Shown: piece after piece, positions 599 through 63,227 of the stretch
How the letters are laid out: every line of letters starts with the position of its first letter
Numbering within the stretch: position 1 is the first letter of the stretch
Virus record (IMG/VR): IMGVR_UViG_3300037631_006232
Location: 64,001 to 128,000 of that record
DNA: 64,000 nt
Direction: 5' to 3' (one strand)
From: a virus
Taxonomy: Duplodnaviria > Caudoviricetes
Made by a program: the position numbers and the translations under genes
The notes under the pieces: generated by a model
Told to the model about the DNA's origin: nothing
Database searches by the model: none
What the model saw: only the letters and a program-made list of their open reading frames with translations

Positions 599-627
599 TT
601 GAAATCAGGGTGTGTAGTGCATATACT
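599..627 (+). promoter_or_regulatory. sigma70-like promoter for the RNAP/virion operon
   Basis: TTGAAA-N17-TATACT; overlaps the divergent phage-type promoter. Confidence 0.5.
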
Positions 628-654
628 TATGACACATACAGAGTAAATTTTGTG
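624..654 (-). promoter_or_regulatory. Conserved phage promoter motif copy
   Basis: CACAAA-N14-TGTCATAAGTA upstream of the 1..533 gene. Confidence 0.7.
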
Positions 655-663
655 AGTTTTACT

Positions 664-43050: not shown

Positions 43051-43602
43051 TTATCCTAAGATGAATACTTCTTTCTCTGTATTGTTTCTTAAGGTGATCG
43101 CAACGCAACCACCTCTCTTTTTGGAGCCTTTGACTATTATGAAATCTTCGCCGGTTTTTCGAAACTCCTTTAAGGAATAGGCCATGCTAATATTAGTAAT
43201 AGTATGTTCCTTAAAGGTGTCATCCTTCTTGATAAAAGAAGTGATATCTTCTACCGTCAAAGGACCCTTCTTCTTTTTGCCCTTCAATCGATCCTTGAAT
43301 CGTTGAAGGTCTTCTTTTTCCTGGTCGGACAGGGTTGGAGCAGGTTTCAAAGGTGGGGGAGGAGGCTCCGATTTCTCAGGAGTCTCTACCTTTTCAACCT
43401 TCTTCTCCTTCACCTTCTTCTCCTTCTTCTCAGAAGGAGAAAAGGAAATAGAAACTGAAAGCATAAAGAATAGAAAAACTAAAATTATTAGAAATTTAGA
43501 TTCCGGTTCTTTTACTGCAAGCGCGGCGCATAAAGGGTTAAAAGCAATGACGCCCATAGTTAGGGCGCCTACAATACCAATTAAGTGTCGTAGTGAGTTC
43601 AT
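43051..43602 (-). CDS. 2TM membrane protein with K/E/P-rich linker (cassette gene)
   Basis: AAGGAG RBS, phage promoter upstream. Confidence 0.8.
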   Translation of the reverse strand: MNSLRHLIGIVGALTMGVIAFNPLCAALAVKEPESKFLIILVFLFFMLSVSISFSPSEKKEKKVKEKKVEKVETPEKSEPPPPPLKPAPTLSDQEKEDLQRFKDRLKGKKKKGPLTVEDITSFIKKDDTFKEHTITNISMAYSLKEFRKTGEDFIIVKGSKKRGGCVAITLRNNTEKEVFILG

Positions 43603-43662
43603 AAATACTCCTTATGAAAAGTTTACTACTGAGACTTTCAGAACCATTCTGGTAGCCTCATA

Positions 43663-43696
43663 TACTTATGCCATAAAGGAGGTACCTATTTGCGTG
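43663..43696 (-). promoter_or_regulatory. Conserved phage promoter
   Basis: CACGCAAA-N15-TGGCATAAGTA. Confidence 0.8.
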
Positions 43697-43710
43697 CTTA
43701 TCCCCTACCC

Positions 43711-43739
43711 TAGCCATCTAAGGGATGTTTTACTATACT
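43711..43739 (+). promoter_or_regulatory. sigma70-like promoter
   Basis: TAGCCA-N17-TATACT upstream of 43759. Confidence 0.45.
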
Positions 43740-43758
43740 TGTAGTAAAGGAGATTACT

Positions 43759-44142
43759 ATGAACGATTTACAAAGATATTATGCCGAGCTAGGTGTTATA
43801 CAAGCTTGTAAGGAAGCAGGGCTTACTAAAGAAGCTAACTTTTTAAAGAACCTATTGAAAAAAATTATGCCTAGCGGCCCTAGGCAGATAGCTTTAAGGT
43901 CCGCACCTAAAGCCCCTATTTCTGCTTTAGCTAAATTAAATAAGCCTCTAGTTTCTATAGCGGATGCTGGATTGATATCTAGTGGAACTGCTGCGGGGGC
44001 TTACAAAGGCGGTAAAATCTTACCCAACCTTTTGCCCGAGCAATATGATAATGAGATAAGTCAGCAAATTATGAAGTATCTAGGAAATCTAAGCGGCGGA
44101 GCGTTAGGTTATAAAAAGGCTAGGAAACTTATAAAGAAGTGA
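43759..44142 (+). CDS. KxA/Gly-zipper putative virion protein
   Basis: YAELGVIQAC leader followed by TKEANF; AAGGAG RBS. Confidence 0.75.
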   Translation: MNDLQRYYAELGVIQACKEAGLTKEANFLKNLLKKIMPSGPRQIALRSAPKAPISALAKLNKPLVSIADAGLISSGTAAGAYKGGKILPNLLPEQYDNEISQQIMKYLGNLSGGALGYKKARKLIKK

Positions 44143-44149
44143 GGTCCTA

Positions 44150-44446
44150 ATGATTAGTTTAAATGTTTTAGCAAAAGCTGCTTCTAGCGTAGCCGAATAT
44201 AAAGTATATGTAATTAGCGCCGCTGCTATTATAGCGCTGATTAGTTCTGTATGGGTTAGGTGCGATAACGAAAAAACAAATCGCTTACTAGGTACCTCTA
44301 CTGGCGAGGTTATCCAAGCACAAGAAACTTTAGAGGCCATAGATTCTGCTGCAAAAAAAATTACAATACCTACTAAAAAAGAAGTAGTCGGCAAGAACAA
44401 ACCAAAGAATGCTAAGGAGCAGGATAATGATTCGGCGACTTTTTAG
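44150..44446 (+). CDS. N-terminal TM protein (possible lysis accessory)
   Basis: One TM segment and charged tail; overlaps next gene. Confidence 0.6.
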   Translation: MISLNVLAKAASSVAEYKVYVISAAAIIALISSVWVRCDNEKTNRLLGTSTGEVIQAQETLEAIDSAAKKITIPTKKEVVGKNKPKNAKEQDNDSATF

Positions 44447-44936
44447 TATACTAGTAATTGCTAGTCTTATAGCTATGCCTAAGGTAGAGGCTAACGTTTG
44501 TTTACCTGGAGAAGGTATGTGGATTTCTAGTGGCGGCACTCAAACTTGTAAGCCTTGCCCTAAGAAACATGACTACAAAGATGGGTTAGCATTAAAAATG
44601 CCTCTTAGTTGTATGGCTCCTATAACAGGAGCTTTACTAAGTGTTGGGGACTATAACTCTTTAAAAGATACTAGGGATTACGCAGCTAGCTTAGAGCATT
44701 TTAAAGATACCTTAGCCCCTAATTTAAAAAAACTTCAAGCAGGGTTGTCCTTAGCTAGGCTTGATTTGGAGAAGAGTATTATTAAACAGCAACTTCTTAT
44801 TAACGAGCTAACCATAGTTAAGATTGAAAGAGAAGAGTATAGAACCTCTCATAGAGTCTACTTTTGGTTGTTGGTAGGTATGAGTGGTTTAGCAGTGGGT
44901 TTAGCGGGCGTACAAGCTTACCAAGTTTTAAGATAG
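44427..44936 (+). CDS. Signal peptide, Cys, coiled coil and C-terminal TM protein (spanin-like?)
   Basis: AAGGAG RBS before ATG 44427; architecture only. Confidence 0.55.
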   Translation: MIRRLFSILVIASLIAMPKVEANVCLPGEGMWISSGGTQTCKPCPKKHDYKDGLALKMPLSCMAPITGALLSVGDYNSLKDTRDYAASLEHFKDTLAPNLKKLQAGLSLARLDLEKSIIKQQLLINELTIVKIEREEYRTSHRVYFWLLVGMSGLAVGLAGVQAYQVLR

Positions 44937-44997
44937 CAGAATGGGATGATTACCAACTTATAGACTTCATCTTACTTTACGGGATAGCTTTTTAACT

Positions 44998-45627
44998 ATG
45001 AAATCTAAAACTAAAAAAATATTAGCTGGAGCCGGAGCAGGTGCTTTAGCCGCGCCAGTAGCTAGTTTAGCTGCAGGACCTGCAGTAGTTAACTTAGCTG
45101 AATCCTTACCGGATTCTAGCCTTAAAGACTACTTTGGAGGATTAGCTGCAGAAATGTCTAGATCCGATCTAGAAGATTTTTTTACTAGGCCTTTTGGGCC
45201 CTTACCTGATAGGCTGAATAGAGTTTTAGAAGGCTACGCTGGAGATGCCTTGCAGAATAAGCACCTGTTTGGGGCTTTGAAAGCCTCGCAACCAGTAGAT
45301 GCTCTGCTAGGTAATACGTCTATCCCGGCCTCTATGCTGTCGGCTGTGGCTGATGAAATGGCTCCTGCTAGTTTAACTAGGGATGCTATAGCGGCTAGCG
45401 TTAAGGATAGGCTTCTTAAAGGTACCGGTGCTTTAGCAAGCGGAGGTGCTGCGACAGGCAGTTTAGTAGGTGCTCTTCTTGCTAGAGGCGGTAAGCAAAA
45501 AGTGCCTTCTAGTTCAGTAGCTAAAGCTATTACTAAATCCCCTGTAGCAGATAGTTTGTTGTCTAAATATTTAAATAAAGCAACAAATACAGATACTTAC
45601 AGAGCTTTATTCTCTAAGTTTATGTAA
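44998..45627 (+). CDS. Gly-zipper protein
   Basis: AGAGAGALA and GALASGGAATGSLVGALL segments. Confidence 0.7.
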   Translation: MKSKTKKILAGAGAGALAAPVASLAAGPAVVNLAESLPDSSLKDYFGGLAAEMSRSDLEDFFTRPFGPLPDRLNRVLEGYAGDALQNKHLFGALKASQPVDALLGNTSIPASMLSAVADEMAPASLTRDAIAASVKDRLLKGTGALASGGAATGSLVGALLARGGKQKVPSSSVAKAITKSPVADSLLSKYLNKATNTDTYRALFSKFM

Positions 45628-45662
45628 GCTAAAAAAACCGTCTCTCACCCGGTTTTCTTTTT
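45627..45662 (-). terminator. Repeated bidirectional hairpin/junction element
   Basis: agctaaaaaaaccgtctctcacccggttttc, near-identical at 47081 and 51930. Confidence 0.8.
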
Positions 45663-45990
45663 AAGGGGTATTGCAGCAGCACTCCTCGAGAGAAACATCC
45701 TCTCGGCAGTTATCCGCATAGCCCATTAGAGTAACTTCTTCAGGGGTTACCTGGAAGAAGGCTACTCTTATAATCCACCGGGCTTTCCCCGGAGGAGCAA
45801 TTTCAACTCCACCCACTTCATAGAAGGTGGCTTTTACTAGGCCACTGTAATTGTCCGGGATGTCTTGTATACAAGGATACCGGAACTCTTTTTTCTTCTT
45901 ATGGAAGAACGAGAGCGATACCCCCGATGCTGGCACCTGTTTTAGCTCCAGAACCTGGTACACTAGCTCATTGTATATAAGTTTATTCAT
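45661..45990 (-). CDS. Hypothetical cassette gene
   Basis: GAGG RBS, promoter upstream. Confidence 0.75.
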   Translation of the reverse strand: MNKLIYNELVYQVLELKQVPASGVSLSFFHKKKKEFRYPCIQDIPDNYSGLVKATFYEVGGVEIAPPGKARWIIRVAFFQVTPEEVTLMGYADNCREDVSLEECCCNTP

Positions 45991-46058
45991 AGCTATACCT
46001 CACAATGAAAAATTAAGAACATCATATAGATAGAATTACCTAGATGATTTGGTTCAAT

Positions 46059-46090
46059 TACTTATGCCAGAAAAGAGAGGTTATTTTGTG
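46059..46090 (-). promoter_or_regulatory. Conserved phage promoter
   Basis: CACAAA-N15-TGGCATAAGTA. Confidence 0.8.
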
Positions 46091-46209
46091 AGCTAAAAAA
46101 ATGTAAATTTAATAGTACAACGAATAAGATTTAGTACTACCAAACAAGGTAAACCTTTGTATATCTTATTCCTTAGCAAGGTTATTAACTAAGGGATCCT
46201 TGAAACTTT

Positions 46210-46998
46210 TTAGTCAAACAGCACGAATTTGCTGTTATGACTTTTTACCAAATTATAATATTTGGTATTATTATCTAATTTAACTACCTTACAGTTTCCT
46301 GTAAGGAATGGCACTGCAGTTTTACCTGCAGTAATAGTATTGTTTTCAAACAAGAAGAACTTGCCCGCAAGGGAGTTCTTCTTAATTTTGAGATCTTCTC
46401 CGGTCGAAAGACCGTTGAAGAGAACAGTGTCTCCTGAGAAACAGGTAACGTGGTAGACACCACCGTCAAGTGCTTCTCCACCTCCATCACCACTACTACA
46501 TAAAGCAGCAATGAGGGCGATAAAGAGGGCGAGGGAGAAGAGGCCGATGATTCGGAAGAATGGAGCGGCCTTACGGCTGATTGCGTCAACTTCCACCACA
46601 GGGGCTTCTGCTTCTGCTCGTTCTTCTGCTTCCACCACAGGGGCTTCTTCTTCCACTACTGGGGCGGAAGCTTCAGCATGAAGTCGGCGAGCTTCATTAA
46701 GAAACTCTTGAAGACGCTCTTGTTCAACTGAGGCTTCAGCTTCCACTTCAGCTGGGGCTTCCACCTCTGGGGCTTCAACTTCCGCCACAGGGGCTTCAGT
46801 TTCAGCTTCCACCACTGGAGCTTCAGTTGGAGCTTCCACCACTAGGGCTTCAGTTTCAGCTGGGGCTTCAGTTTCAGCTTGTTCCATAGCCAGAGCTAAG
46901 TCCTTTTCTAGGTGACGGATAGCCCCTTCATCCTGTGAAGCACGTGCCGCTTTTAAAGCGGTACTTAGAGCCGTAATTAGCAATTCATTATTTGCCAT
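46210..46998 (-). CDS. Membrane-anchored protein with EAPVVE repeats (cassette gene)
   Basis: A/E/P/V repeats, one TM, AAGGAG RBS. Confidence 0.8.
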   Translation of the reverse strand: MANNELLITALSTALKAARASQDEGAIRHLEKDLALAMEQAETEAPAETEALVVEAPTEAPVVEAETEAPVAEVEAPEVEAPAEVEAEASVEQERLQEFLNEARRLHAEASAPVVEEEAPVVEAEERAEAEAPVVEVDAISRKAAPFFRIIGLFSLALFIALIAALCSSGDGGGEALDGGVYHVTCFSGDTVLFNGLSTGEDLKIKKNSLAGKFFLFENNTITAGKTAVPFLTGNCKVVKLDNNTKYYNLVKSHNSKFVLFD

Positions 46999-47036
46999 GA
47001 TGTATACTCCTTTCTGAGTATGTTTTTTGGTTCACA

Positions 47037-47070
47037 TACTTATGCCATAAAAGAGGTACTCTTTTGCGTG
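47037..47070 (-). promoter_or_regulatory. Conserved phage promoter
   Basis: CACGCAAA-N15-TGGCATAAGTA. Confidence 0.8.
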
Positions 47071-47080
47071 CTACTCTCGG

Positions 47081-47118
47081 AGCTAAAAAAACCGTCTCTC
47101 ACCCGGTTTCTTTTTTTT
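47081..47118 (-). terminator. Repeated hairpin/junction element
   Basis: agctaaaaaaaccgtctctcacccggtttc plus T-tract. Confidence 0.8.
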
Positions 47119-47407
47119 ATTTATTACGCTTGTATAGTACTTTTCTCAAAAGAGAAAAGAACCCTTTCAAGGTAAGGTCGAGTGCCCATTCGGCGGGCTG
47201 CGACACCTTACGAGTAGTGTCAATCACATACTCGAACTGCGTTACAGGCCCAGCCTTGCGAGAACGGGTTGGGGGGTTAGGCGGCACTGAGGCCACCGGT
47301 TTGTGGAACTGGGGCTCGAGACCATAGTCTCTTTCCCCAAGTTCGCTATAGCGGACTTCGACCCACTGCTGTAGGTCTTCATCGAAGTAAAATGCTTGTT
47401 CTAACAT
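47117..47407 (-). CDS. Hypothetical cassette gene
   Basis: AAGGAG RBS before ATG 47407. Confidence 0.75.
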   Translation of the reverse strand: MLEQAFYFDEDLQQWVEVRYSELGERDYGLEPQFHKPVASVPPNPPTRSRKAGPVTQFEYVIDTTRKVSQPAEWALDLTLKGFFSLLRKVLYKRNK

Positions 47408-47458
47408 AAGAACTCCTTGTGTGTAAGGGTGAGTGAGCACTATTGCTCTATTATCAAA

Positions 47459-47490
47459 TACTTATGCCACAAAATAGGTAGTGATTTGTG
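47459..47490 (-). promoter_or_regulatory. Conserved phage promoter
   Basis: CACAAA-N15-TGGCATAAGTA. Confidence 0.8.
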
Positions 47491-47524
47491 AGCTAAAGAA
47501 AACCTGCTCTCACCAGGTTTCCTT
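47491..47524 (-). terminator. Repeated hairpin/junction element (variant stem)
   Basis: aaacctg-ctctcac-caggttt; same hairpin at 49468. Confidence 0.75.
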
Positions 47525-47526
47525 GA

Positions 47527-47739
47527 TCAACGGTACTTAGTGTAAGGCACTAAGTCATTACCGTTGTAGTGGTATCCCACCACCTTCCATAGCCGGAGAT
47601 TGGGGGTTAGGGGTGGATAATCCTCAAGAATTAACTTAGCCCCTGTTGGAAGCAAGTTCTCTCCTTTTAGATTTAACGACGGTCCGCAAACAAGCTTAGT
47701 TGCTTGTTGCTTAGTGAGTTTTATATACATATGCTGCAT
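47527..47739 (-). CDS. Hypothetical cassette gene
   Basis: AGGAGAGG RBS. Confidence 0.75.
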   Translation of the reverse strand: MQHMYIKLTKQQATKLVCGPSLNLKGENLLPTGAKLILEDYPPLTPNLRLWKVVGYHYNGNDLVPYTKYR

Positions 47740-47773
47740 ACCTCTCCTTTCTAAGTAGTGTTAGAGGTTCACT

Positions 47774-47806
47774 TACTTATGTCATATACGTACCTTTATT
47801 TGCGTG
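47774..47806 (-). promoter_or_regulatory. Conserved phage promoter
   Basis: CACGCAAA-N14-TGACATAAGTA. Confidence 0.75.
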
Positions 47807-47842
47807 TTTGTGTTTTACTTGTAGAAACCCTATTAAGCTTAA

Positions 47843-48799
47843 ATGAGTGTTAAACTAGAAAGGGATTATTCTATGTATGAAGTAAACACATTCGAAGTTT
47901 CTAGCAGTGCTATCAACAAATTGTGTAAGCACAAAGAATTACCGCTTAGCAGCGTTAAGGAAATGCTGGAAGGTGAGAGCTTTGTTAATTTAACCAACGA
48001 AGCTAATTCACAAAGTGTGCTAGCTCATGTAGAGGCTAGTGAGAAATTGGTTCACGTTAATACTAAGGATATGCAGTTTCAAGGATGGAAACCCAGAGAC
48101 AAGGCGCAGAGCTGTTTTTTTTGGAGTTTAAAGAATAAGGGATTAACTATATGTTTTGGTGCTGCGGGTACTGGAAAGACCAGCATAGCTCTAGCTGCAG
48201 GAGTACAAAGATTATTCAAAGAAGACAAGAAGCTTATACTTTGCAAACCCACCGTGTTTGTGGGTATGAAATCTAATGCTATAGCTGCAGTCCCTGGGGA
48301 TGAAAAAGATAAACTCAGGCCTTACGTAGACTCTTATATGCCTGGTCTAACTAAGCTACTAGGGCGAGATGTGCAGCATTATATATATGAATGGGAAGAG
48401 AAAGGTCTTATAGAGTTTAGGGCTGTAGAACTTATGCGTGGACAACACTTTGAAGACTGTACACTTATACTTGATGAAGCTCAGAACCTTTCGCTACATG
48501 AGCTAGCAAGTGTTTTAAGTAGGGTGGGTGAGAACAGCCATGTGGTTGTGCTAGGCGATCCTGCTCAGATTGATACAAGGAGCCGTTGGCATGATACTGG
48601 TTTATATTTGTTTGCAGATTCTATGTCTATTCACGATTCAGATTTTGTTGGGATGGTTAAGTTGGAAAGCCAATACCGAGGACCAATGGCGGGATTATGC
48701 CAAGAAATACTGGCCGAATATTCTCAGTTAAACGACGAAGCTGACGACGGCTTTATTACTACTCTTCCTCGGTTTGTTGTAGGTAATCAAACTCGTTAG
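47843..48799 (+). CDS. phoH: PhoH family ATPase
   Basis: GAAGTGKT, VPGDEKDK, MRG, LDEAQN, SRVGENS, GDPAQID. Confidence 0.92.
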   Translation: MSVKLERDYSMYEVNTFEVSSSAINKLCKHKELPLSSVKEMLEGESFVNLTNEANSQSVLAHVEASEKLVHVNTKDMQFQGWKPRDKAQSCFFWSLKNKGLTICFGAAGTGKTSIALAAGVQRLFKEDKKLILCKPTVFVGMKSNAIAAVPGDEKDKLRPYVDSYMPGLTKLLGRDVQHYIYEWEEKGLIEFRAVELMRGQHFEDCTLILDEAQNLSLHELASVLSRVGENSHVVVLGDPAQIDTRSRWHDTGLYLFADSMSIHDSDFVGMVKLESQYRGPMAGLCQEILAEYSQLNDEADDGFITTLPRFVVGNQTR

Positions 48800-49424
48800 T
48801 GTCCCCTAGAGGATCTTCTAGTTCGTGGCTAAACCAATAAGGCTCCGTGAATACTTTAAAAGGAGGTCGCTCCGGACTATTAGTTCCTAAAGAAGTATGC
48901 TCGTACCTAACTTTGTTGTTAGGTCCGCAGCATAGCGCCCCTGTTTTGTCGTCAAAAAAGAAGTTCTTTTGTTTATGCTCTGTCCAGTAAATAGCTTCTG
49001 TGTAATCTATACCAGAGTTCATTTCGGGTGGTCTATAATCTATAGTAAACAAGTAGTTACCCCGCACAGTAGTCTTAGTACGAGTCTGCATAGAAACAGG
49101 AGAGTTTACTAACATAGCTTTAACGTAGATTTGTATATTGTCGCTCAAACAATCCCACCAAGCAATATCGGTTAAGTGTATCTCGGTCTCTGGAGAAGAG
49201 TCTCTACAGAAGATAGCGCACTGCATAACTTTATCGTAGCAAGCGTTATATTTTGGGAGGTACACTTCAAACAAGGGCGGTTCGTACCTAGTGGCTCGGA
49301 CTCCAACCAAGTAGCCTTCTAACATGTTTTCATCTTTACCAAAGATGAACTGATCGCTGCCTTTGAGAAAGCTTTCTTTTACCCATACCCTAGTGTATGG
49401 GAGATTCTGATACATCATATGCAA
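48759..49424 (-). CDS. Conserved phage hypothetical protein
   Basis: NLP...WDC.S...YLFTID...EHK...PNN pattern recalled from marine phage proteins. Confidence 0.75.
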   Translation of the reverse strand: MHMMYQNLPYTRVWVKESFLKGSDQFIFGKDENMLEGYLVGVRATRYEPPLFEVYLPKYNACYDKVMQCAIFCRDSSPETEIHLTDIAWWDCLSDNIQIYVKAMLVNSPVSMQTRTKTTVRGNYLFTIDYRPPEMNSGIDYTEAIYWTEHKQKNFFFDDKTGALCCGPNNKVRYEHTSLGTNSPERPPFKVFTEPYWFSHELEDPLGDTNEFDYLQQTEEE

Positions 49425-49439
49425 AACTCCTATGCAGCT

Positions 49440-49468
49440 AAGTTACTAGGCTACTAGGTACTTTGCAA
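49440..49468 (-). promoter_or_regulatory. sigma70-like promoter
   Basis: TTGCAA-N17-TAACTT on the minus strand. Confidence 0.4.
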
Positions 49469-49501
49469 GCTAAAAAAACCTGCTCTCACCAGGTTCTTTT
49501 T
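49468..49501 (-). terminator. Repeated hairpin/junction element
   Basis: agctaaaaaaacctgctctcaccaggttctttt. Confidence 0.8.
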
Positions 49502-49814
49502 ACTTGGAGAAGAACTCCAAGTTTAGGTTTAAGGGTTTGCCCACCCAGATTCCCTTCTGGTGAGAGTTTATCTCATCTTCAGGGTTGTCTAGGTGAACTA
49601 GGAAGCTCATGGAGGGGTCTAGGGCTACCCAGTCCTCCATCCATTTTTCAATCCACTTTGATAGGGGTCTTTTGGCAACTAAGCCTATTTGCCCCTTCGG
49701 GTGCGGACCCACGGGTCCGTCTTCGTCTTCTAAGATAGAGAGACCTGGTTCCTGCTTAAGCAAGTACCGAGCAGCCTCTTTCCTAGAGGACCCGTAAATA
49801 TGTATGTGGTACAT
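49500..49814 (-). CDS. Hypothetical cassette gene
   Basis: AAGGAGG RBS. Confidence 0.8.
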   Translation of the reverse strand: MYHIHIYGSSRKEAARYLLKQEPGLSILEDEDGPVGPHPKGQIGLVAKRPLSKWIEKWMEDWVALDPSMSFLVHLDNPEDEINSHQKGIWVGKPLNLNLEFFSK

Positions 49815-49848
49815 ATTTACCTCCTTAAAGATAAAGGTTATTAACAGT

Positions 49849-49882
49849 TACTTATGCCATATTTGATAAACATATTTGCGTG
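49849..49882 (-). promoter_or_regulatory. Conserved phage promoter
   Basis: CACGCAAA-N15-TGGCATAAGTA. Confidence 0.8.
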
Positions 49883-49943
49883 TTACTTTAACACCTAAAA
49901 AAGACCTGCAAGGATTCTCACGAATGCTTACAAGCCTAAACCT

Positions 49944-50522
49944 TTACCGACGCCCTTTACGTTTGTCGGCTAAGGTTTTTCCATGGGGCTTTTGCGAACC
50001 ACGTCGTCCCTTTCGGGTTGGTGCAGTCCACAAAGCCTTTCGGTGAGGAGCGGGATACCTGTCCTCAAACTGAGACTCAAATCCTGTGATGTCCGCCATA
50101 TACGAGTTGGCTTGGATAAATCCAAGCCACTCCCAGTAGCGGTAATCTTCACGGAACTCTAGCATATCAACTGAGAGTCCCATCACCCCTCGTTCATCCC
50201 CCCATAGCTCTAAACTAGACTCACGAATGTAAGTCCATCTCACAGAGTTATCAGGGAGTTGATGAAGGAAGTACTGAGTACCTCCGGAGCTTGTGTAGCC
50301 CCAGCATTCGCCTTCATCAACCTCAACTTGATACCAAAGGTTCCACCCGCAAGGATAGTCCCAATGTTCCTCGGTGGTTTTAAAAAGCTCGTGCTCTAGG
50401 TCAATAAGACCCATCACACCCTCGAAACCGATTGGAGTACCAGGTACCCATACATTGAAAATGTAATGGGAGAGGATGGTGGTTGCAGGCCCCCACCCAT
50501 TAAGCGAAAAGAAAAACTCCAT
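49944..50522 (-). CDS. Trp-rich hypothetical cassette gene with basic tail
   Basis: AAGGAGG RBS. Confidence 0.8.
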   Translation of the reverse strand: MEFFFSLNGWGPATTILSHYIFNVWVPGTPIGFEGVMGLIDLEHELFKTTEEHWDYPCGWNLWYQVEVDEGECWGYTSSGGTQYFLHQLPDNSVRWTYIRESSLELWGDERGVMGLSVDMLEFREDYRYWEWLGFIQANSYMADITGFESQFEDRYPAPHRKALWTAPTRKGRRGSQKPHGKTLADKRKGRR

Positions 50523-50558
50523 GATTATTACCTCCTTAAGGATAGAGTTTTGTTCAAA

Positions 50559-50590
50559 TACTTATGCCTGATTAGGTAGTATATTTGCGT
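50559..50590 (-). promoter_or_regulatory. Conserved phage promoter
   Basis: CGCAAA-N14-AGGCATAAGTA. Confidence 0.75.
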
Positions 50591-50619
50591 AGAAGCTATA
50601 CTTATACTAGGAGGTAAGT

Positions 50620-51450
50620 ATGCAGTATGAAGTAGCAATGAAAGAAGTTAAGCTAGCCATTGTATTACTAGATATTATCGGTAGTACTAAGTACGTACAG
50701 CGCGCAGGTGCTGTACAAGCTGCTAAGTTATTTCAAATACATGACCGCCTAGCTCGTAGTTTAATCTACAAGTTTAACGGTAGGGAGATAGATAGGAGTG
50801 ATGGTTTCTTGTGTTCTTTTGAGCGTACTGTAGATGCTGTTAATTTTGCACTACATTACCAGAAGACCATACCTCCTAAAACAGGCTTAGGATGTAGGAT
50901 AGGAATACATTGGGGCACTGTAATAGAAGTGCAGCAGGACGATGTGTTTGTAGCGGCCAACGCTAAGCGCATAGAATTAGAAGGTATTAGTAAAAACATT
51001 GCTGCTAGAACTATGAGTCTATGTGGCAAAGGGCAAGTACTACTTACCAAAGAATCTATGCAAGCTGTTCGCGGCAGAACTAACATGCATACTCCTAAGA
51101 GTACGCGTTATGTATGTGTGGGATTGTACAAGTTTAAAGGTGTTAGTAAGCCTCAAGAGATATACGCAGTAGGTGAGACCTTAGAAAGCTTACAACCCCC
51201 CCTAGGTAGTGAGAAGGTAAAGAGGCTTGGAGGTCCTAATAAGATAAAGCAGCGTGCTAAGGATAGAAAAATGTGGGATTGGTTATGGTGGTTTACACTA
51301 CGGGCTGGGCTACTATGCTTCTTGGTACTTGTGTACTTGTTGCTACCCGTACTGCTGGATCCTTCGGAACGTTTCTTTTATGGTATTGAGGGATTTGAGT
51401 GGTTGGATTCTATAGTTAGTTATTTAAAAGGACTAGAGGTAAGTAAATGA
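50620..51450 (+). CDS. Class III nucleotidyl cyclase domain protein with C-terminal TM
   Basis: LLDIIGST, DRSDG, RIGIHWG, NIAAR, GQVLLT, FKG motifs; AGGAGG RBS. Confidence 0.88.
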   Translation: MQYEVAMKEVKLAIVLLDIIGSTKYVQRAGAVQAAKLFQIHDRLARSLIYKFNGREIDRSDGFLCSFERTVDAVNFALHYQKTIPPKTGLGCRIGIHWGTVIEVQQDDVFVAANAKRIELEGISKNIAARTMSLCGKGQVLLTKESMQAVRGRTNMHTPKSTRYVCVGLYKFKGVSKPQEIYAVGETLESLQPPLGSEKVKRLGGPNKIKQRAKDRKMWDWLWWFTLRAGLLCFLVLVYLLLPVLLDPSERFFYGIEGFEWLDSIVSYLKGLEVSK

Positions 51451-51935
51451 GTACACAAGCAAATCTAAGCAACAAGCAGCAAAAGCAGTTAGATAAAGCT
51501 AGGCGTGGTTGGTGGTTTAGTGTTATCTTTTTAACCATGGTAGTAGGTCTTATTCTTTTCTTAACTTATGTAAAAATAGTTGACGAAAATAGAGATGTGC
51601 TTATAGGTATACTAGGCGTTATTACAGGTAGTATTTCTAGCATGATGGCTATTGCTAGTGGTAGAGATCCTTCCGAGGTTGAGGAGCTAAAAGATAAGTT
51701 ATCAGCAGCCAATGCAGACAGAACTGCTTTGATCTCTAGGTTACGGGATGCGCAGATACAGCTGGAGCTAAGAACTCAGCAAATATGTGAACTACAAGAA
51801 TCTGTGATAGAGAAGCTAAGTGTGTTTGCAGGACAGAATCCAATACGTACTAGGTCTCCTGATGATGTAGTGCTTCCTCCTCAAGTATCTGAGTGGTTGC
51901 CGGCCTCTAAAAGAGATGACGAGTTTGATAGCTAA
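51447..51935 (+). CDS. 2TM plus coiled-coil protein coupled to the cyclase
   Basis: ATGA overlap, two hydrophobic helices, coiled coil. Confidence 0.8.
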   Translation: MSTQANLSNKQQKQLDKARRGWWFSVIFLTMVVGLILFLTYVKIVDENRDVLIGILGVITGSISSMMAIASGRDPSEVEELKDKLSAANADRTALISRLRDAQIQLELRTQQICELQESVIEKLSVFAGQNPIRTRSPDDVVLPPQVSEWLPASKRDDEFDS

Positions 51936-51967
51936 AAAAACCGTCTCTCACCCGGTTTTCTTTTTTT
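51930..51967 (-). terminator. Repeated bidirectional hairpin/junction element
   Basis: Hairpin identical to the 45627 element. Confidence 0.8.
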
Positions 51968-52112
51968 ACAGCCCCCCAAGCACCCCCCACATATGTAGGA
52001 GCTTGACGCCCCCAACAAAGGCTGTTACCAATAGCAGCAGAACAATTTGCACCATGATAAGCGTAGCGATCAACTCGCCACAAGCCTCTCGAATCAGTCT
52101 TTCTTTTCTCAT
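51966..52112 (-). CDS. 48-aa single-TM cassette protein (MRKERLIREACGELIATLIMV...)
   Basis: AGGAG RBS, promoter upstream, terminator downstream. Confidence 0.75.
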   Translation of the reverse strand: MRKERLIREACGELIATLIMVQIVLLLLVTAFVGGVKLLHMWGVLGGL

Positions 52113-52173
52113 AATGTATCTCCTATGAGAAAGGGTTAATGCAGTAGTTCAGAACCATTCTTTGTACTGCATT

Positions 52174-52204
52174 TACTTATGCCCTATTTACCTTAGTATT
52201 TGCG
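52174..52204 (-). promoter_or_regulatory. Conserved phage promoter
   Basis: CGCAAA-N14-GGGCATAAGTA. Confidence 0.75.
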
Positions 52205-52267
52205 CATCTTTGGGAGCTAAAAAAACCGTTCGGGATTCTCACGAATGCCTACTAGGTTTGCCTTCCT

Positions 52268-52546
52268 TTATAGTCCGAAATTATCTTTCGGAAGTTTGGA
52301 GGGGCTATGTTTGGAGCGCAGAATATCTCTCAAGAGATACTGCACTCCGACTTCGCAACGAGTACGTGCGAGTGGGTTGCACTCGCTGCAGGTTGCACAA
52401 TGGAGCGCCCAAGTAGGGTGCTCCAACTTTTCCTCTAACTGCTGGAGCGTTAGAAGCTCCAGCTTTTTTACTTGTTTTATTTCTTTGAGGTTTTTTATAC
52501 CCCAAAGAACGCCTAAGCAAAGTAAAGTATAACTTACTAACAACAT
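52268..52546 (-). CDS. Membrane-anchored Zn-finger-like cassette protein
   Basis: N-terminal TM; HCATCSEC...C. Confidence 0.7.
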   Translation of the reverse strand: MLLVSYTLLCLGVLWGIKNLKEIKQVKKLELLTLQQLEEKLEHPTWALHCATCSECNPLARTRCEVGVQYLLRDILRSKHSPSKLPKDNFGL

Positions 52547-52583
52547 GATTTATCTCCCTTCTATGCATATTAGTTTGTTCAAA

Positions 52584-52616
52584 TACTTATGCCATATATA
52601 GCTGTGGATTTGTGTA
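52584..52616 (-). promoter_or_regulatory. Conserved phage promoter
   Basis: CACAAA-N14-TGGCATAAGTA. Confidence 0.8.
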
Positions 52617-52717
52617 GCTTTGCGAGCTAAAAAACATAGCGGCAATGCTACTATGCTTCTTTACCCTTTGCTCCAGGAGCTCACTACTTCACGGGATTTT
52701 GTGAGTAGCTTTGCTGA

Positions 52718-53245
52718 TTAGACGAACATACTTAAATGCTCGTCTTTGTCCAGCTTCACTTTGGGGAAGTAAAACTTCTTCCAGGCGAAGCTGGCTCCAT
52801 TGGGCTTTGCCCAAAAGTGCACGGGGAGTTTAACCCCCTTCACCTCCAGGCTGACATGCCATTGGATAAGCCCCTCTTCGATGAGGGTTTGTCCAATGGT
52901 ATGGGTGATTTTGGGGAAAGGAAGCACAAAAGTTTGAGTCAGCCAACGCTTTTGGCATTCCTTCTTCGCTTTCTTTGCTTCCTTTCGGAAGGTTTTCACC
53001 GCTGCCGGGTAGTCCTCCTCCTTATCAGGGTAAGGGAATGGAAGATCTCCAGGCCAAGACAACAAGAACCACGCTTCCTCAAACGCTTTCTTCACAGCGG
53101 CAGGGGCGTCTGCGATGTTGCAGAACCCTCCCACTCGAATGTCCGAAGACCATCCTGGGATTGAGTTGCAAGCAACAATTTCAGGCATGTCGTCTTTCAA
53201 TACCTGACGGATAAGCTCCGCTGGGCTTTGAGTAGTGTTACTCAT
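52718..53245 (-). CDS. Hypothetical cassette gene
   Basis: AAGGAG RBS. Confidence 0.8.
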   Translation of the reverse strand: MSNTTQSPAELIRQVLKDDMPEIVACNSIPGWSSDIRVGGFCNIADAPAAVKKAFEEAWFLLSWPGDLPFPYPDKEEDYPAAVKTFRKEAKKAKKECQKRWLTQTFVLPFPKITHTIGQTLIEEGLIQWHVSLEVKGVKLPVHFWAKPNGASFAWKKFYFPKVKLDKDEHLSMFV

Positions 53246-53283
53246 GATCTTTTCTCCTTTCTGAGTGTATTTATAAGATCAAA

Positions 53284-53313
53284 TACTTATGCCAGAAAAG
53301 AGAAGTTATTTTG
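53284..53313 (-). promoter_or_regulatory. Conserved phage promoter
   Basis: CAAA-N15-TGGCATAAGTA, near-identical to the 46059 copy. Confidence 0.75.
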
Positions 53314-53315
53314 GT

Positions 53316-53404
53316 AGCTAAAAGAAAAGCTTCATCGGCTGGTTGGTTTAATTACCAGTACTAACTCCCTCAGGAACCAGTACCGCTTATTAGCTTTTCT
53401 TTTT
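53316..53404 (-). terminator. Long hairpin terminator with AGCTAAA junction
   Basis: aagaaaagct...agcttttctt outer stem with inner ctggtt/aaccag. Confidence 0.55.
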
Positions 53405-53471
53405 ACCTAACACACATAGCACCCTAGGATTTTAGAGTGCTTTACAGCAGCAGCAGCAGGTATAAGGATTG

Positions 53472-53975
53472 TTAGTCCTTTTTACCTGCTAGAGCATGCT
53501 CTTTCCAAATCGCCTCGGCTTCGGCTTTCGCCTCAGCGTTGTTTGGATCATTGAAGAAAGGGTCAAACAATTCCCGTGGAGCCACCACACCGGCCAGCGA
53601 GCCGTATGCGGTCCATAGGATTTTATTAGCTTGACCGATGATAACAATGTTCCGACATTCACGCAAAGGACGGTTGGTCATTCGGCTTTCGCCAGAACGA
53701 TCTCCTCGCACCTGATAGAATACCTCAGGTTCATCCACAGGGCTGTCACCATTAATTGGACCCCAGAGGGCGTCCAACAACGGTGGGCAGGAATCGGGAA
53801 GTTCGAACGAAGCACAGATAAACTCGCCATATTCAAACCCATCCATCACCGACTTGATAAAGGAAGCGTGTTCCTCCGTCAAGCCGTGATCTCCGTGAAC
53901 AATGGTGAACCCATGGACGTCTACTGACGTGCTGTCTCGATGTAGGTCATCACCCGTGAGTTTTACTGAACTCAT
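53472..53975 (-). CDS. Hypothetical cassette gene
   Basis: AAGGAG RBS; GC-richer codon usage. Confidence 0.8.
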   Translation of the reverse strand: MSSVKLTGDDLHRDSTSVDVHGFTIVHGDHGLTEEHASFIKSVMDGFEYGEFICASFELPDSCPPLLDALWGPINGDSPVDEPEVFYQVRGDRSGESRMTNRPLRECRNIVIIGQANKILWTAYGSLAGVVAPRELFDPFFNDPNNAEAKAEAEAIWKEHALAGKKD

Positions 53976-54058
53976 GATACACTCCTTAAAAGTGTCTGTG
54001 CCCGGGAATCTAACCCAGGCGTTACGATCGCAGGGACACCATCATTAGTGTTTGCAAT

Positions 54059-54091
54059 TACTTATGACAAATAGGAGCCCATTTTTGCGTG
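54059..54091 (-). promoter_or_regulatory. Conserved phage promoter
   Basis: CACGCAAA-N14-TGTCATAAGTA. Confidence 0.75.
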
Positions 54092-54163
54092 CTACTCTCG
54101 GAGCTAAAAAGTAGCTTCGACCTCTACTTACAGGCCCTCGTCCTACAACCCGGACGGGTAGGT

Positions 54164-54493
54164 TTAGTGTCTCCGGAGGTAACCCTTCCAGAGCCCTCTA
54201 CCCCACCATCGAGACTGTCGCATCTCGTCTAGGTGGGCTAGAAGTTTTTCCTTAACAGGCCCTTCGGGGTAGTTAAGGAGGAAGGCTTCGTGATCACCTT
54301 CCTTTGGCAAGCCACTTTGGATAGCGGCCGCCAAGAACACTACCTCTGCTGGGAGAGGTAGCTCGGTTTCTATACAAGTCACCGAAGCGAACTTGTATAG
54401 AAGTGTTGTGGCGTCGCACTCACCAGGGAATCCTGGTAATTGCACGACGCCCATCGCCCAATCAAAAGGGCAGTCTGTATTGTACATTCTCAT
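54164..54493 (-). CDS. Hypothetical cassette gene
   Basis: AAGGAG RBS. Confidence 0.75.
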   Translation of the reverse strand: MRMYNTDCPFDWAMGVVQLPGFPGECDATTLLYKFASVTCIETELPLPAEVVFLAAAIQSGLPKEGDHEAFLLNYPEGPVKEKLLAHLDEMRQSRWWGRGLWKGYLRRH

Positions 54494-54522
54494 TTTTTAC
54501 TCCTTAAATGAGTGTTATCACT

Positions 54523-54556
54523 TACTTATGCCACAAAGTGGGTATAGATTTGTGTG
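54523..54556 (-). promoter_or_regulatory. Conserved phage promoter
   Basis: CACACAAA-N15-TGGCATAAGTA. Confidence 0.8.
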
Positions 54557-54650
54557 TATCTATGGGAGCTAAAAAAGTTAATGAAAAGTCTTAGTAAGTA
54601 TTATTCCATAGCAAGACTATTAACTATGGTACTAATGGCGCTTTTGCTTT

Positions 54651-54752
54651 TTACAGCATCCACGCCAAGTCGGTAATTGCTTCGGCGTATTCGCCCACCA
54701 AAGCAAAGGCGGTAGCCGCAGCAACTACTGCAGCTATGATAAAGTATTTGAT
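54651..54752 (-). CDS. 33-aa hydrophobic peptide with ATC at the expected start (non-canonical start or decayed gene)
   Basis: AAGGAA RBS then ATC-AAA-TAC-TTT; has its own promoter. Confidence 0.45.
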   Translation of the reverse strand: MKYFIIAAVVAAATAFALVGEYAEAITDLAWML

Positions 54753-54788
54753 AACGTATTCCTTTCTAAGAATATGTTCATTGTCAAA

Positions 54789-54822
54789 TACTTATGCCAC
54801 AAAATAGGTAGTGATTTGCGTG
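54789..54822 (-). promoter_or_regulatory. Conserved phage promoter
   Basis: CACGCAAA-N15-TGGCATAAGTA; 35 bp identical to the 47454 copy. Confidence 0.8.
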
Positions 54823-54831
54823 ATCTGCACT

Positions 54832-55050
54832 CTAGGTATCTTCTTCAGAATTAGAGTTCTCAGCTATCTCTGTAACTACGATTTCTAATAGGTCTTGCAT
54901 TAGTTGTTCTTCTGCTCGACACACTGCTTTAGTAGTAAGGTAGTTATCTAGTACTTTATCTTTTAGTTTTGAAGCTGCAAGAAGGTCTTCGACCCCTATA
55001 ACCTCAAACACTGAATCTAGTAACTCTGAGAGGCTTATAGTTATATTCAA
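54832..55050 (-). CDS. Hypothetical protein
   Basis: Coupled ORF at end of operon. Confidence 0.65.
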   Translation of the reverse strand: MNITISLSELLDSVFEVIGVEDLLAASKLKDKVLDNYLTTKAVCRAEEQLMQDLLEIVVTEIAENSNSEEDT

Positions 55051-56414: not shown

Positions 56415-56419
56415 GTTAA

Positions 56420-60101: not shown

Positions 60102-60138
60102 AACACTCCTTTGAAATTAGACTGTTAGGAGCATAGTC

Positions 60139-60459
60139 TTATACCACATTATCACTATTTTTTTCGTGCTTGGACATCTCTGCTTCTGCTTCCTTAGCTA
60201 CCTGCAATCCTAGTTGATCAGCTTTCCAAAAGAACCTAGGTTTCGTAGCTGCCCACAAAACTATTTTTGATATTTCTAGGCAGTAACTAGTGTCTTCTGC
60301 TATTAGGTTCATAGCTTTAAAATAAGTAACTGTAGAACCTTCTGTTTCTATTATAAAAATACCAGTGTCCGCATCGTATATAGGTACGGGTATACTATGA
60401 CCTCGAAGTACTTGGTAAGCAGCGTATACCCTAGCTAAAAATCTACTAATATAAGACAT
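60139..60459 (-). CDS. Hypothetical protein
   Basis: AGGAGG RBS. Confidence 0.75.
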   Translation of the reverse strand: MSYISRFLARVYAAYQVLRGHSIPVPIYDADTGIFIIETEGSTVTYFKAMNLIAEDTSYCLEISKIVLWAATKPRFFWKADQLGLQVAKEAEAEMSKHEKNSDNVV

Positions 60460-63178: not shown

Positions 63179-63194
63179 AAATAGTCTCCGCAGG

Positions 63195-63224
63195 TACTTA
63201 TGACAGAAAAAAGCTAGTTATTGC
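63195..63224 (-). promoter_or_regulatory. Conserved phage promoter heading the 55-63 kb operon
   Basis: GCAAT-N14-TGTCATAAGTA. Confidence 0.65.
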
Positions 63225-63227
63225 ATA

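What the first reader, a model, noticed from the sequence alone, without database searches (positions are those of the whole stretch)
43051..54822. Array of single-gene cassettes each driven by a conserved bipartite non-sigma70 promoter CRCAAA-N14/15-TGGCATAAGTA
Seen: 15 copies (624, 43663, 46059, 47037, 47459, 47774, 49849, 50559, 52174, 52584, 53284, 54059, 54523, 54789, 63195). All are on the minus strand, intergenic, with fixed 14-15 bp spacing, and lie just upstream of an SD and ORF. None precedes a structural gene. The motif is not the sigma70 consensus; its geometry loosely resembles sigma28 (TAAA-N15-GCCGATAA) but the -10 element differs. Inference: an early promoter read by the phage's own RNAP, giving a candidate recognition sequence for this enzyme class.
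Basis: partly seen in the sequence, partly recalled or inferred. Interest (0 to 1): 0.85.

Follow-up and report, generated by a model that had tools for sequence, protein, structure and literature searches.

The report
Clade-wide promoter of RNAP-carrying phages
The repeated signal is a real promoter placed in front of the non-structural genes of an uncultured marine phage. The same core sequence recurs in distant cultured relatives (Salmonella phage Arash, Vibrio phage D69) that carry their own RNA polymerase and sigma factors, so it is probably the start signal of that phage-encoded transcription machine.

Summary
All 15 listed copies exist, all lie on the minus strand and between genes. The bipartite pattern CAAA-N13-16-GNCATAAGTA occurs 14 times against 0.02 expected by chance. 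Three more copies exist: window 60136 and genome 60626 and 47925.

The geometry is that of a sigma-70-family promoter: a -35 box (C)GCAAAT, a 16-17 bp spacer ending in TGG, a -10 block YATAAGTA, then N2-TGA.

The 147-kb phage encodes one multisubunit RNAP and two sigma-70-family proteins, both outside the window. The same -10 block, with the same strand bias, is the top repeated word in Salmonella phage Arash (20:1) and recurs in Vibrio phage D69 (32:3) and two IMG/VR relatives (14:1, 8:1).

In Arash, published virion proteomics found the RNAP subunits and the sigma-1 homolog (Gp10) inside particles.

My best reading is that these are early/middle promoters read by the phage RNAP with its divergent sigma-1.

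The cassette architecture (terminator, promoter, ORFan gene) matches the PeSL modules of T4-type phages. A relative keeps the module but holds homologs of none of the 13 minus-strand cassette genes tested.

I found no published promoter consensus for this phage clade. An earlier scan note on the half-site ATAAGTA concerns unrelated phage-plasmids.

The parts
619..658 (-). Class A promoter (CTCACAAAA-N13-TGTCATAAGTATATGC). It drives the 419-aa gene that runs leftward out of the window and is divergent from the RNAP gene.
   Evidence: The orthologous site is conserved in L148, L150 and L151, followed by a leader hairpin with compensatory changes.
664..5025 (+). Phage RNAP subunit: beta fused to the N-terminal half of beta' (1453 aa).
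   Evidence: Pfam Rpb2_6, Rpb2_3, Rpb1_1 and Rpb1_2. Residues 76-986 align to bacterial beta and residues 1072-1448 to beta' about 176-548, a span that by position should include the clamp coiled-coil and the catalytic region.
6118..7893 (+). Phage RNAP subunit: C-terminal half of beta'.
   Evidence: Pfam Rpb1_5 and Rpb1_4.
43658..43697 (-). Class A promoter for the 183-aa ORFan 43051-43602.
46054..46093 (-). Class A promoter for the 109-aa ORFan 45661-45990.
47032..47071 (-). Class A promoter for the 262-aa ORFan 46210-46998. It sits directly after a terminator hairpin with a GTGAGAG loop and the tail TTTTTTTAGCTCC.
47454..47493 (-). Class A promoter for the 96-aa ORFan 47117-47407, preceded by a terminator.
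47769..47807 (-). Class A promoter for the 70-aa ORFan 47527-47739.
49844..49883 (-). Class A promoter for the 104-aa gene 49500-49814 (DOPA-dioxygenase-like). The following gene 48759-49418 has no promoter of its own.
50554..50592 (-). Class A promoter for the 192-aa ORFan 49944-50522. It is divergent from the plus-strand cyclase-like gene 50620-51450.
52169..52207 (-). Class A promoter with a structured leader, followed by a 48-aa ORF (51966-52112).
52579..52617 (-). Class A promoter for the 92-aa ORFan 52268-52546, preceded by a terminator.
53279..53318 (-). Class A promoter for the 175-aa ORFan 52718-53245.
54054..54092 (-). Class A promoter with an 83-nt structured leader, for the 167-aa ORFan 53472-53975.
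54518..54557 (-). Class A promoter for the 109-aa ORFan 54164-54493.
54784..54823 (-). Class A promoter (best-scoring copy) with no canonical ORF downstream. The product may be a 33-aa hydrophobic peptide with an ATC start, or a non-coding RNA.
60131..60169 (-). Weaker internal class A-like site (CACGAAAAA-N13-TGGTATAAGACTATGC) in front of gene 59694-60101 inside the long operon.
63190..63228 (-). Class A promoter (TATGCAATA-N13-TGTCATAAGTACCTGC) at the head of the tightly packed minus-strand operon 54832-63178. The operon includes UvdE and an HTH_7 protein.

Best explanation
These elements are transcription promoters of the phage's non-structural (early/middle) genes.

Each has a -35 box (C)GCAAAT, a 16-17 bp spacer that ends in TGG (the extended -10 position), a -10 block YATAAGTA, and a conserved TGA two bases further on, where initiation is predicted. 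In the 43-55 kb region each promoter follows the intrinsic terminator of the previous cassette, so each small ORFan gene is its own transcription unit.

The signal is most likely read by a phage-encoded sigma-70-family factor bound to the phage's own beta-beta' RNA polymerase. The favoured factor is sigma-1 (genome 24751-25452, homolog of Arash Gp10). By analogy with Salmonella phage Arash, this enzyme is packaged in the virion and delivered with the DNA.

Shown here:
- the motif, its statistics, its placement and its conservation across the clade;
- the presence of the RNAP and of two sigma genes.

Taken from a paper: virion packaging of the RNAP and Gp10 in Arash.

Inferred:
- that transcription starts at these sites;
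- which sigma reads them;
- which polymerase core is used;
- the early timing.
For: Placement and statistics:
- The bipartite pattern gives 14 matches against 0.02 expected, all on the minus strand, and 20:1 strand bias in the whole record.
- Leaders to the Shine-Dalgarno sequence and ATG are mostly 29-38 nt. Terminator hairpins with a T-run lie just upstream.

Conservation among close relatives:
- The motif is kept at three orthologous intergenic sites in relatives whose sigma-2 is 84%, 57% and 47% identical, while flanking sequence has diverged.

Conservation across the clade:
- The same -10 block is the most frequent minus-strand 9- to 11-mer in Salmonella phage Arash. Its RNAP is 34% identical over 99% of the length.
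- The block also recurs in Vibrio phage D69.
- Strand counts are Arash 20:1, D69 32:3, G010 14:1 and G011 8:1.
- In the own record and in Arash, D69, G010 and G011 these copies lie on the strand opposite the RNAP gene, and all of these encode the fused RNAP and sigma-1.

Virion packaging in the cultured relative:
- In Arash virions the beta fusion Gp206 is the protein with most spectra (3516). Beta' Gp216 has 1210 and sigma Gp10 has 467 (PMC10585845).

The sigma factors:
- The own genome has a Gp10 homolog (E 1.8e-28).
- Its model (pLDDT 84) matches full-length SigA, RpoS and SigB.
- It has region 3, which in known sigma factors reads the TG element.
- Its region 2.3 aromatic residues (Y..WW) are replaced by H..NN, and its region 4.2 differs from the canonical form. 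This fits a non-canonical -10 and -35.
- Sigma-2 keeps the canonical Y and W residues and an ERVRQ region 4.2, and lacks region 3.

The polymerase:
- The fused RNAP aligns to bacterial beta across nearly its whole length, and to beta' about 176-548, the span that should contain the sigma-binding coiled-coil.
Against: - There are no transcription start sites, no rifampicin data and no in vitro transcription for any member of the clade.
- Virion packaging is known only for Arash, which is 34% identical. The authors themselves note that abundant infection proteins could contaminate particle preparations.
- The known hosts (Salmonella, Vibrio) are gamma-proteobacteria, and this phage's host may be too. 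Conservation across phages therefore does not by itself exclude a host enzyme. TGnTATAAG differs from the host extended -10 consensus at only one hexamer position.
- The assignment to sigma-1 rather than sigma-2 rests on domain content and contact residues, not on a test.
- The -35 box is present in this lineage and in L159 but is not evident in Arash.
- The record is 87% complete.
Confidence: 0.58

Rival explanations
1. A phage sigma factor (sigma-1 or sigma-2) redirects the host core RNA polymerase to these promoters, as SPO1 gp28 and other phage sigmas do. The phage's own polymerase would then serve another gene class.
For: - Both phage sigmas are bona fide sigma-70-family proteins close enough to RpoS/SigA to be detected by sequence.
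- Phage sigma factors are usually assumed to use the host core (review PMC13282480).
- The promoter geometry is canonical for a bacterial holoenzyme.
Against: - Sigma-1 and the fused RNAP co-occur in every lineage examined.
- Both are found together in Arash virions.
- The phage beta/beta' retains the regions that align to the sigma-docking parts of bacterial RNAP.
Confidence: 0.2
2. The sites are ordinary host sigma-70 extended -10 promoters (TGnTATAAg) used for early transcription by the unmodified host holoenzyme, as in T4 early promoters and PeSLs.
For: - TG(G/T)TATAAG matches TGnTATAAT at 8 of 9 specified positions in Arash, D69 and several sites here.
- PeSL modules of T4-type phages use host early promoters (PMC4122927).
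Against: - The base at the -7 position is G in every copy in five lineages. In established knowledge of sigma-70, T at -7 is one of the two most critical -10 positions.
- Conservation extends well beyond a sigma-70 hexamer, to TA and N2-3-TG downstream.
- The -35 box GCAAAT matches TTGACA at 1 of 6 positions.
- The sigma-70-type scan finds fewer promoter-like sites in the cassette region than in shuffles, 12 against 19.9.
- The cultured relative packages its own RNAP.
Confidence: 0.12
3. The repeat is mainly a recombination or regulatory module, such as an operator for a phage DNA-binding protein or a boundary for cassette shuffling, and not the site where RNA polymerase is positioned.
For: - GCAAAT-like words and TTAGCT..AGCTAA palindromes are clustered in the 1-kb intergenic region 63179-64246.
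- The stretch TTTTTAGCTC..AG..TA upstream of the -35 box is also conserved here and in L159.
- The module bounds swapped genes.
Against: - The strict orientation, the fixed distance to Shine-Dalgarno and ATG, and the position after terminators.
- Bipartite geometry with a 16-17 bp spacer.
- In Arash the -10 block alone is conserved in front of genes and tRNAs, without the upstream boxes.
- A role in shuffling is compatible with being a promoter, as for PeSLs.
Confidence: 0.05

Closest known systems
PeSLs (promoter-early stem-loops), the composite terminator/promoter modules of T4-type phages (Arbiol et al. 2010, PMC2839356; Comeau et al. 2014, PMC4122927)
   Same: - A short conserved module made of a terminator stem-loop followed by a promoter separates single ORFan genes in a variable region.
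- A relative (L159) keeps nine copies of the module in 11 kb, but none of this phage's 13 minus-strand cassette genes tested has a homolog there.
   Different: - PeSL promoters are host sigma-70 early promoters. Here the -10 block (YATAAGTA, with G at -7) and the -35 box (GCAAAT) are not the host consensus.
- This phage carries its own RNAP and sigma factors.
- Recombination at the modules was not demonstrated here.
Early promoters of virion-packaged multisubunit RNAPs of jumbo phages (phiKZ, AR9) and of the crAss-like phage phi14:2
   Same: - A phage-encoded two-barrel RNAP is delivered with the virion (shown for Arash only).
- A phage-specific consensus sits in front of early genes, on the strand opposite the structural genes.
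   Different: - According to reviews (PMC13282480, PMC7824862), those polymerases have no sigma-70-family homolog and use unrelated specificity subunits (gp68, gp226).
- This clade encodes two recognisable sigma-70-family proteins, and its promoter has -35 / TGn / -10 geometry.
- There is one RNAP set here, not two.
Phage sigma-factor-dependent promoters (SPO1 gp28 and gp33/34; T4 gp55 late promoter TATAAATA)
   Same: - A phage-encoded sigma-family protein would impose a new consensus.
- YATAAGTA shares 6 of 8 positions with the T4 late box. This comparison is from my own knowledge of the T4 consensus, not from a tool.
   Different: - Those sigma factors act on the host core polymerase.
- T4 late promoters have no -35 box and need gp33 and gp45.
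- Here the partner is probably a phage polymerase.
Salmonella phage Arash (OQ632216; PMC10585845) and Vibrio phages D69, D148 and D181
   Same: - The same fused beta-beta'N plus beta'C RNAP, and the same two sigma genes (shown for Arash and D69).
- Arash shares the gene order sigma-2, helicase, portal, RNAP; D69 has a similar order but with sigma-2 on the opposite strand.
- The same TG(G/T)TATAAGTA block on the non-structural strand in Arash and D69.
   Different: - RNAP identity is only 34%.
- No conserved -35 box is evident in Arash.
- The downstream element is N3-TGTAA there, against N2-TGA here.
- The Arash paper does not discuss promoters: the word 'promoter' does not occur in its text.

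Membership tests
Sigma-70-family bipartite promoter | Two conserved boxes separated by a 17 +/- 1 bp spacer | tested here: met
   The 9-mer CACGCAAAT lies 13-14 nt from TGG. That places GCAAAT 16-17 bp from the hexamer CATAAG.
Sigma-70-family bipartite promoter | Extended -10 TGn immediately upstream of the -10 hexamer | tested here: met
   TG(G/T) directly precedes YATAAG in 14 of 17 copies here and in Arash, D69 and L159.
Sigma-70-family bipartite promoter | The -10 hexamer has A at position 2 and T at position 6 (housekeeping consensus TATAAT) | tested here: not met
   A at position 2 is present. Position 6 is G in every copy. The element is therefore not a housekeeping-type -10 and implies a different sigma specificity.
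Sigma-70-family bipartite promoter | Transcription starts about 7 nt downstream of the -10 and depends on a sigma factor | not testable with these tools
   This needs 5'-end mapping or in vitro transcription.
Sigma-28 (FliA) promoters, TAAA-N15-GCCGATAA | The -10 is GCCGATAA and a FliA-type sigma is present | tested here: not met
   The -10 is GGCATAAGTA. The phage sigmas match RpoS, SigA and RpoH best. FliA appears only as a weak region-3 hit (E 4e-4).
Sigma-54 promoters, -24 GG / -12 GC | GG-N10-GC spacing | tested here: not met
   TGGCATAAGTAttTGA gives GG-N10-TG. The G falls one base too far downstream, and the strongly conserved ATAAGTA lies between the two elements. No sigma-54 gene was searched for.
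PeSL-type composite terminator/promoter cassettes | A terminator stem-loop directly followed by a promoter, repeated between single variable genes | tested here: met
   Hairpin plus T-run plus AGCTC lies upstream of the -35 box at 47037, 47459, 49849, 52174, 52584 and 54059. There are 13 cassettes in 12 kb.
PeSL-type composite terminator/promoter cassettes | The module is conserved while the enclosed genes differ between relatives | tested here: met
   L159 has nine copies of the module. Only PhoH, the cyclase-like pair and one other gene are shared. None of the 13 minus-strand cassette ORFs tested is shared.
PeSL-type composite terminator/promoter cassettes | The promoter is a host sigma-70 early promoter | tested here: not met
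   See the -10 and -35 comparison above. The sigma-70 scan of the region is below the shuffled expectation.
Virion-RNAP early promoters (phiKZ / N4 / crAss type) | The polymerase that reads them is packaged in the virion | not testable with these tools
   Packaging is shown by mass spectrometry only for the homologs in Arash (PMC10585845). In this phage the RNAP and sigma-1 genes lie in plus-strand structural blocks.

The most novel reading that the evidence does not exclude
A widespread clade of about 150-190 kb myoviruses, spanning marine metagenomes to Salmonella and Vibrio phages, injects a complete, self-encoded sigma-dependent holoenzyme. It would consist of the beta-beta' fusion, beta'C and a divergent sigma-70-family factor. 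It would recognise the clade-wide promoter TGnYATAAGTA-N2-3-TG. This would be the first phage multisubunit RNAP that works with a true sigma-70 homolog, and the first promoter consensus for it. A second sigma would switch the enzyme to canonical-looking late promoters.
Probability: 0.45. Interest if true: 0.8.

Novelty: new variant of a known kind. Interest (0 to 1): 0.64.

Why it matters
Reviews state that phage multisubunit RNA polymerases lack sigma homologs and that phage sigma factors serve the host enzyme. This clade has both. In one cultured member both are found in the virion.

A conserved, simple promoter word (TGnYATAAGTA) gives a direct experimental handle. It can be tested in Arash or D69 by 5'-end mapping and by in vitro transcription with defined subunits. 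It can also be used to annotate the transcription units of the many uncultured RNAP-encoding relatives.

The finding also shows that PeSL-like promoter/terminator cassette shuffling is not restricted to host-dependent T4-type promoters.

Tried and rejected
- **Close DNA relatives in the phage collection.** A megablast of the cassette region found none.
- **Loose bipartite pattern across IMG/VR.** A tighter pattern recovered three true relatives and five probable chance hits.
- **PhoH and the 761-aa protein as anchors in viral contigs.** Neither gave related loci. PhoH homologs found through the protein database did.
- **Pfam and PHROGs on ten cassette ORFs.** Only one weak DOPA-dioxygenase hit. 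The rest are ORFans.
- **Sigma-28 and sigma-54 readings.** Both rejected on sequence; see the membership tests.
- **Bacteroidota -7 motif TAnnTTTG.** Considered by eye and rejected: the register does not fit, and strong Shine-Dalgarno sequences are present.
- **Yeast mitochondrial Rpo41 promoter.** TATAAGTA is identical to the core of that nonanucleotide promoter, which surfaced in the literature search. No T7-like RNAP Pfam match is found in the record. The control genomes also gave no hit, so this absence is weak evidence. I treat the identity as coincidence.
- **Earlier scan note e1-279508.** It concerns an ATAAGTA half-site palindrome in unrelated phage-plasmids.
- **Rfam.** It found only the three tRNAs in the window.


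Full report
**Setting.** The window is bases 64001-128000 of a 147,116-bp IMG/VR phage record, estimated 87% complete. GC content is about 41%. The plus strand of window 664-38453 carries a multisubunit RNA polymerase followed by large ORFs that are probably structural. The polymerase consists of beta fused to the N-terminal half of beta' (664-5025) and the C-terminal half of beta' (6118-7893). Only one RNAP set is present in the record. The minus strand carries three tRNAs, the cassette region 43-55 kb, and a tightly packed operon at 54.8-63.2 kb.

**The observation.** TGGCATAAGTA occurs nine times exactly and six times with one mismatch at the listed coordinates, always on the minus strand. 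The 11-mer with two mismatches allowed is not above chance. The bipartite form is: CAAA-N13-16-GNCATAAGTA gives 14 matches against 0.02 expected.

- In the whole record the count is 20 minus to 1 plus at one mismatch or fewer.
- Aligning 17 copies gives cAcGCAAAt, 13-14 nt, TGGCATAAGTA, two variable bases, then TGA. Two of these copies lie outside the window, at genome 60626 and 47925.
- A weight-matrix scan adds a weaker site at window 60136 and finds no plus-strand site with both boxes.
- Most copies lie 29-38 nt upstream of a start codon with a strong Shine-Dalgarno sequence. The full range is 16-90 nt.
- Many copies lie directly downstream of a hairpin plus T-run, often followed by AGCTC and with shared GTGAGA loops.
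- Site 54789 has no canonical ORF and site 52174 has only a 48-aa ORF.

**What the motif drives.**
- The ORFan cassettes. Nine of ten have no Pfam or PHROGs match.
- The long operon headed by site 63195, which includes UvdE and an HTH_7 protein.
- The 419-aa gene divergent from the RNAP gene.
- Outside the window, the SNF2-helicase operon and the region where earlier notes place a retron-like RNA array.

These are non-structural genes. No copy precedes a plus-strand structural gene.

**Geometry.** If CATAAG is taken as the -10 hexamer, TGG occupies the extended -10 position and GCAAAT lies 16-17 bp upstream. This is the canonical layout of sigma-70-family promoters. The content is not canonical: position 6 of the hexamer is always G, and GCAAAT matches TTGACA at one position. 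The sigma-70 consensus scan of the region finds fewer hits than in shuffles.

**Sigma factors.** The record encodes two sigma-70-family proteins, both outside the window.

- *Sigma-2* (genome 56153-56821, 222 aa) has Pfam regions 2 and 4 and matches RpoS, RpoH and RpoD models.
  - It sits in a conserved block: terminase, DNA polymerase A, primase, nuclease, sigma-2, ParB-like protein, nuclease, SNF2 helicase, portal, RNAP. Relatives keep this block.
  - It keeps the Y and second W of region 2.3 and an ERVRQ region 4.2.
- *Sigma-1* (genome 24751-25452, 233 aa) was found only through its Arash homolog Gp10 (E 1.8e-28).
  - Pfam sees only region 3.
  - A 31-sequence alignment gave a model with pLDDT 84 whose best structural matches are full-length SigA, RpoS and SigB.
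  - A profile aligns regions 2.2 to 4.2 with RpoS. In that alignment the region 2.3 aromatic residues Y..WW are H..NN, and the region 4.2 recognition helix differs.

A sigma with region 3 and altered DNA-contact residues fits a promoter with a strong TG element and non-canonical -10 and -35 boxes. That is the reason for preferring sigma-1. It is an inference.

**Conservation.** At three orthologous intergenic sites, relatives whose sigma-2 is 84%, 57% and 47% identical keep CGCAAAAA-N14-TG(G/T)(T/C)ATAAGT while the flanks diverge. The leader hairpin after one site shows compensatory changes.

A tblastn search with the fused RNAP finds cultured relatives at 34% identity over 99% of its length: Salmonella phage Arash and Vibrio phages D69, D148 and D181.

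- In Arash (GC 53%) the most frequent minus-strand 9- to 11-mers are GGTATAAGT, TGGTATAAGTA and GGTATAAGTAA. The copies sit in front of minus-strand genes and tRNAs and continue as N3-TGTAA.
- D69 has TGTTATAAGTAATATGTAA.
- Strand counts for TGKYATAAGTA at one mismatch or fewer are Arash 20:1, D69 32:3, and IMG/VR relatives G010 (complete, with terminal repeats) 14:1 and G011 8:1. Reversed-pattern controls are 5/7 (Arash), 7/14 (D69), 1/0 (G010) and 0/2 (G011).
- In the own record and in Arash, D69, G010 and G011 the copies lie on the strand opposite the RNAP gene, and all of these encode sigma-1 and the RNAP.

**Who reads it.** The Arash paper reports virion mass spectrometry. The beta fusion Gp206 has the most spectra of any protein (3516). 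Beta' Gp216 has 1210, and sigma Gp10 has 467 with 100% coverage. The second sigma, Gp196, is not in the list (PMC10585845). The authors suggest a role in early transcription but also allow carry-over of abundant proteins.

In the phage studied here the RNAP genes lie at the head of the plus-strand head-gene block and sigma-1 lies inside another plus-strand structural block. This is the same arrangement as in Arash. The fused subunit aligns with nearly all of bacterial beta and with beta' about 176-548, so the parts that dock sigma in bacteria should be present.

Taken together, the most economical model is an injected holoenzyme of phage RNAP plus sigma-1 that reads these promoters. The alternatives are a phage sigma on the host core, or the host holoenzyme using the sites as extended -10 promoters. 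Sequence alone cannot exclude either, particularly because the known hosts are gamma-proteobacteria with the same housekeeping consensus.

**The cassette architecture.** A relative found through PhoH (L159, 57% identical PhoH, GC 50%) has nine copies of TTTTTAGCTnCGAGnCTAAnnCGCAAAT-N14-TGGCATAAGTWTATG within 11 kb on the same relative strand. Only PhoH, the cyclase-like gene pair and one other gene are shared. None of this phage's 13 minus-strand cassette ORFs tested has a homolog there. This matches the behaviour described for PeSLs in T4-type phages (PMC2839356, PMC4122927), with a different promoter type.

**Literature.** Searches found no description of promoters for Arash-like or RNAP-encoding non-jumbo myoviruses. 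The paper that defined the RNAP-encoding clade does not mention promoters or sigma (PMC7481178). Reviews state that phage multisubunit RNAPs lack sigma homologs (PMC13282480; PMC7824862).

**Verdict.** The motif is real and almost certainly a promoter. Its -10 block is a signature of the clade. Assigning it to the phage's own sigma-dependent polymerase is the best-supported reading, but it has not been tested.

Noticed in passing
window 622-629, 8592, 10139, 24021, 43734, 50597; genome 60618, 136588, 136615: A second, plus-strand motif (c)TATACTTA(a) lies 20-45 nt upstream of plus-strand genes, including the RNAP gene itself. TATACTTAA occurs 8 times on the plus strand against 1 on the minus strand. 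At the three divergent intergenic sites the class A -10 reads TAAGTATA, so its reverse complement supplies this motif. In Arash and D69, plus-strand genes carry CTAAAATA instead. These are candidate late promoters with a canonical-looking -10.
   Followed up: partly
window 63179-64000 and beyond the window end, to genome 128246: A 1-kb intergenic region is packed with TTAGCT..AGCTAA palindromes and (T/G)GCAAAT / ATTTGCA words. The latter are the same word as the -35 box. It may be a replication origin or a regulatory hub.
   Followed up: no
outside the window: genome 56100-56152 (L145:1300-1356): The sigma-2 gene is preceded by TTGGTAGAAT (TTGGTAAAAT in L148). This is a canonical extended -10 sequence and resembles the Arash/D69 plus-strand motif.
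   Followed up: partly
window 43610-43655 and 52120-52165 (minus strand): The leaders of two unrelated cassettes share AGAATGGTTCTGAA inside a hairpin. L159 has a similar GGTTCTGG leader. This may be a processing or translational control element.
   Followed up: no
window 540-618 (minus strand): The 5' leader hairpin after site 624 is kept in L148 and L150 with compensatory base changes.
   Followed up: partly
window 53990-54050 (minus strand): An 83-nt leader contains a tRNA T-arm-like GGGTTAGATTCCCGG. Neither ARAGORN nor Rfam calls it.
   Followed up: partly
window 54600-54770 (minus strand): The best-scoring promoter copy (54789) is followed by a Shine-Dalgarno sequence but no ATG, GTG or TTG start. 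An ATC-initiated 33-aa hydrophobic peptide or a small RNA is possible.
   Followed up: partly
window 47070-47100, 47490-47520, 49880-49920, 52205-52240: The terminator hairpins upstream of several promoters share the loop GTGAGA(G). This suggests that the whole terminator-promoter module is copied as one unit.
   Followed up: no
window 50620-51935 (+) and 48759-49418 (-): A nucleotide-cyclase-like gene and its downstream partner are conserved in L159 (67-70% identity). The 219-aa gene 48759-49418 is conserved too, but lies on the opposite strand relative to PhoH in L159.
   Followed up: no
motif core: TATAAGTA is identical to the core of the yeast mitochondrial Rpo41/Mtf1 promoter. No T7-like RNAP was detected in the record, so this is probably coincidence.
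   Followed up: partly
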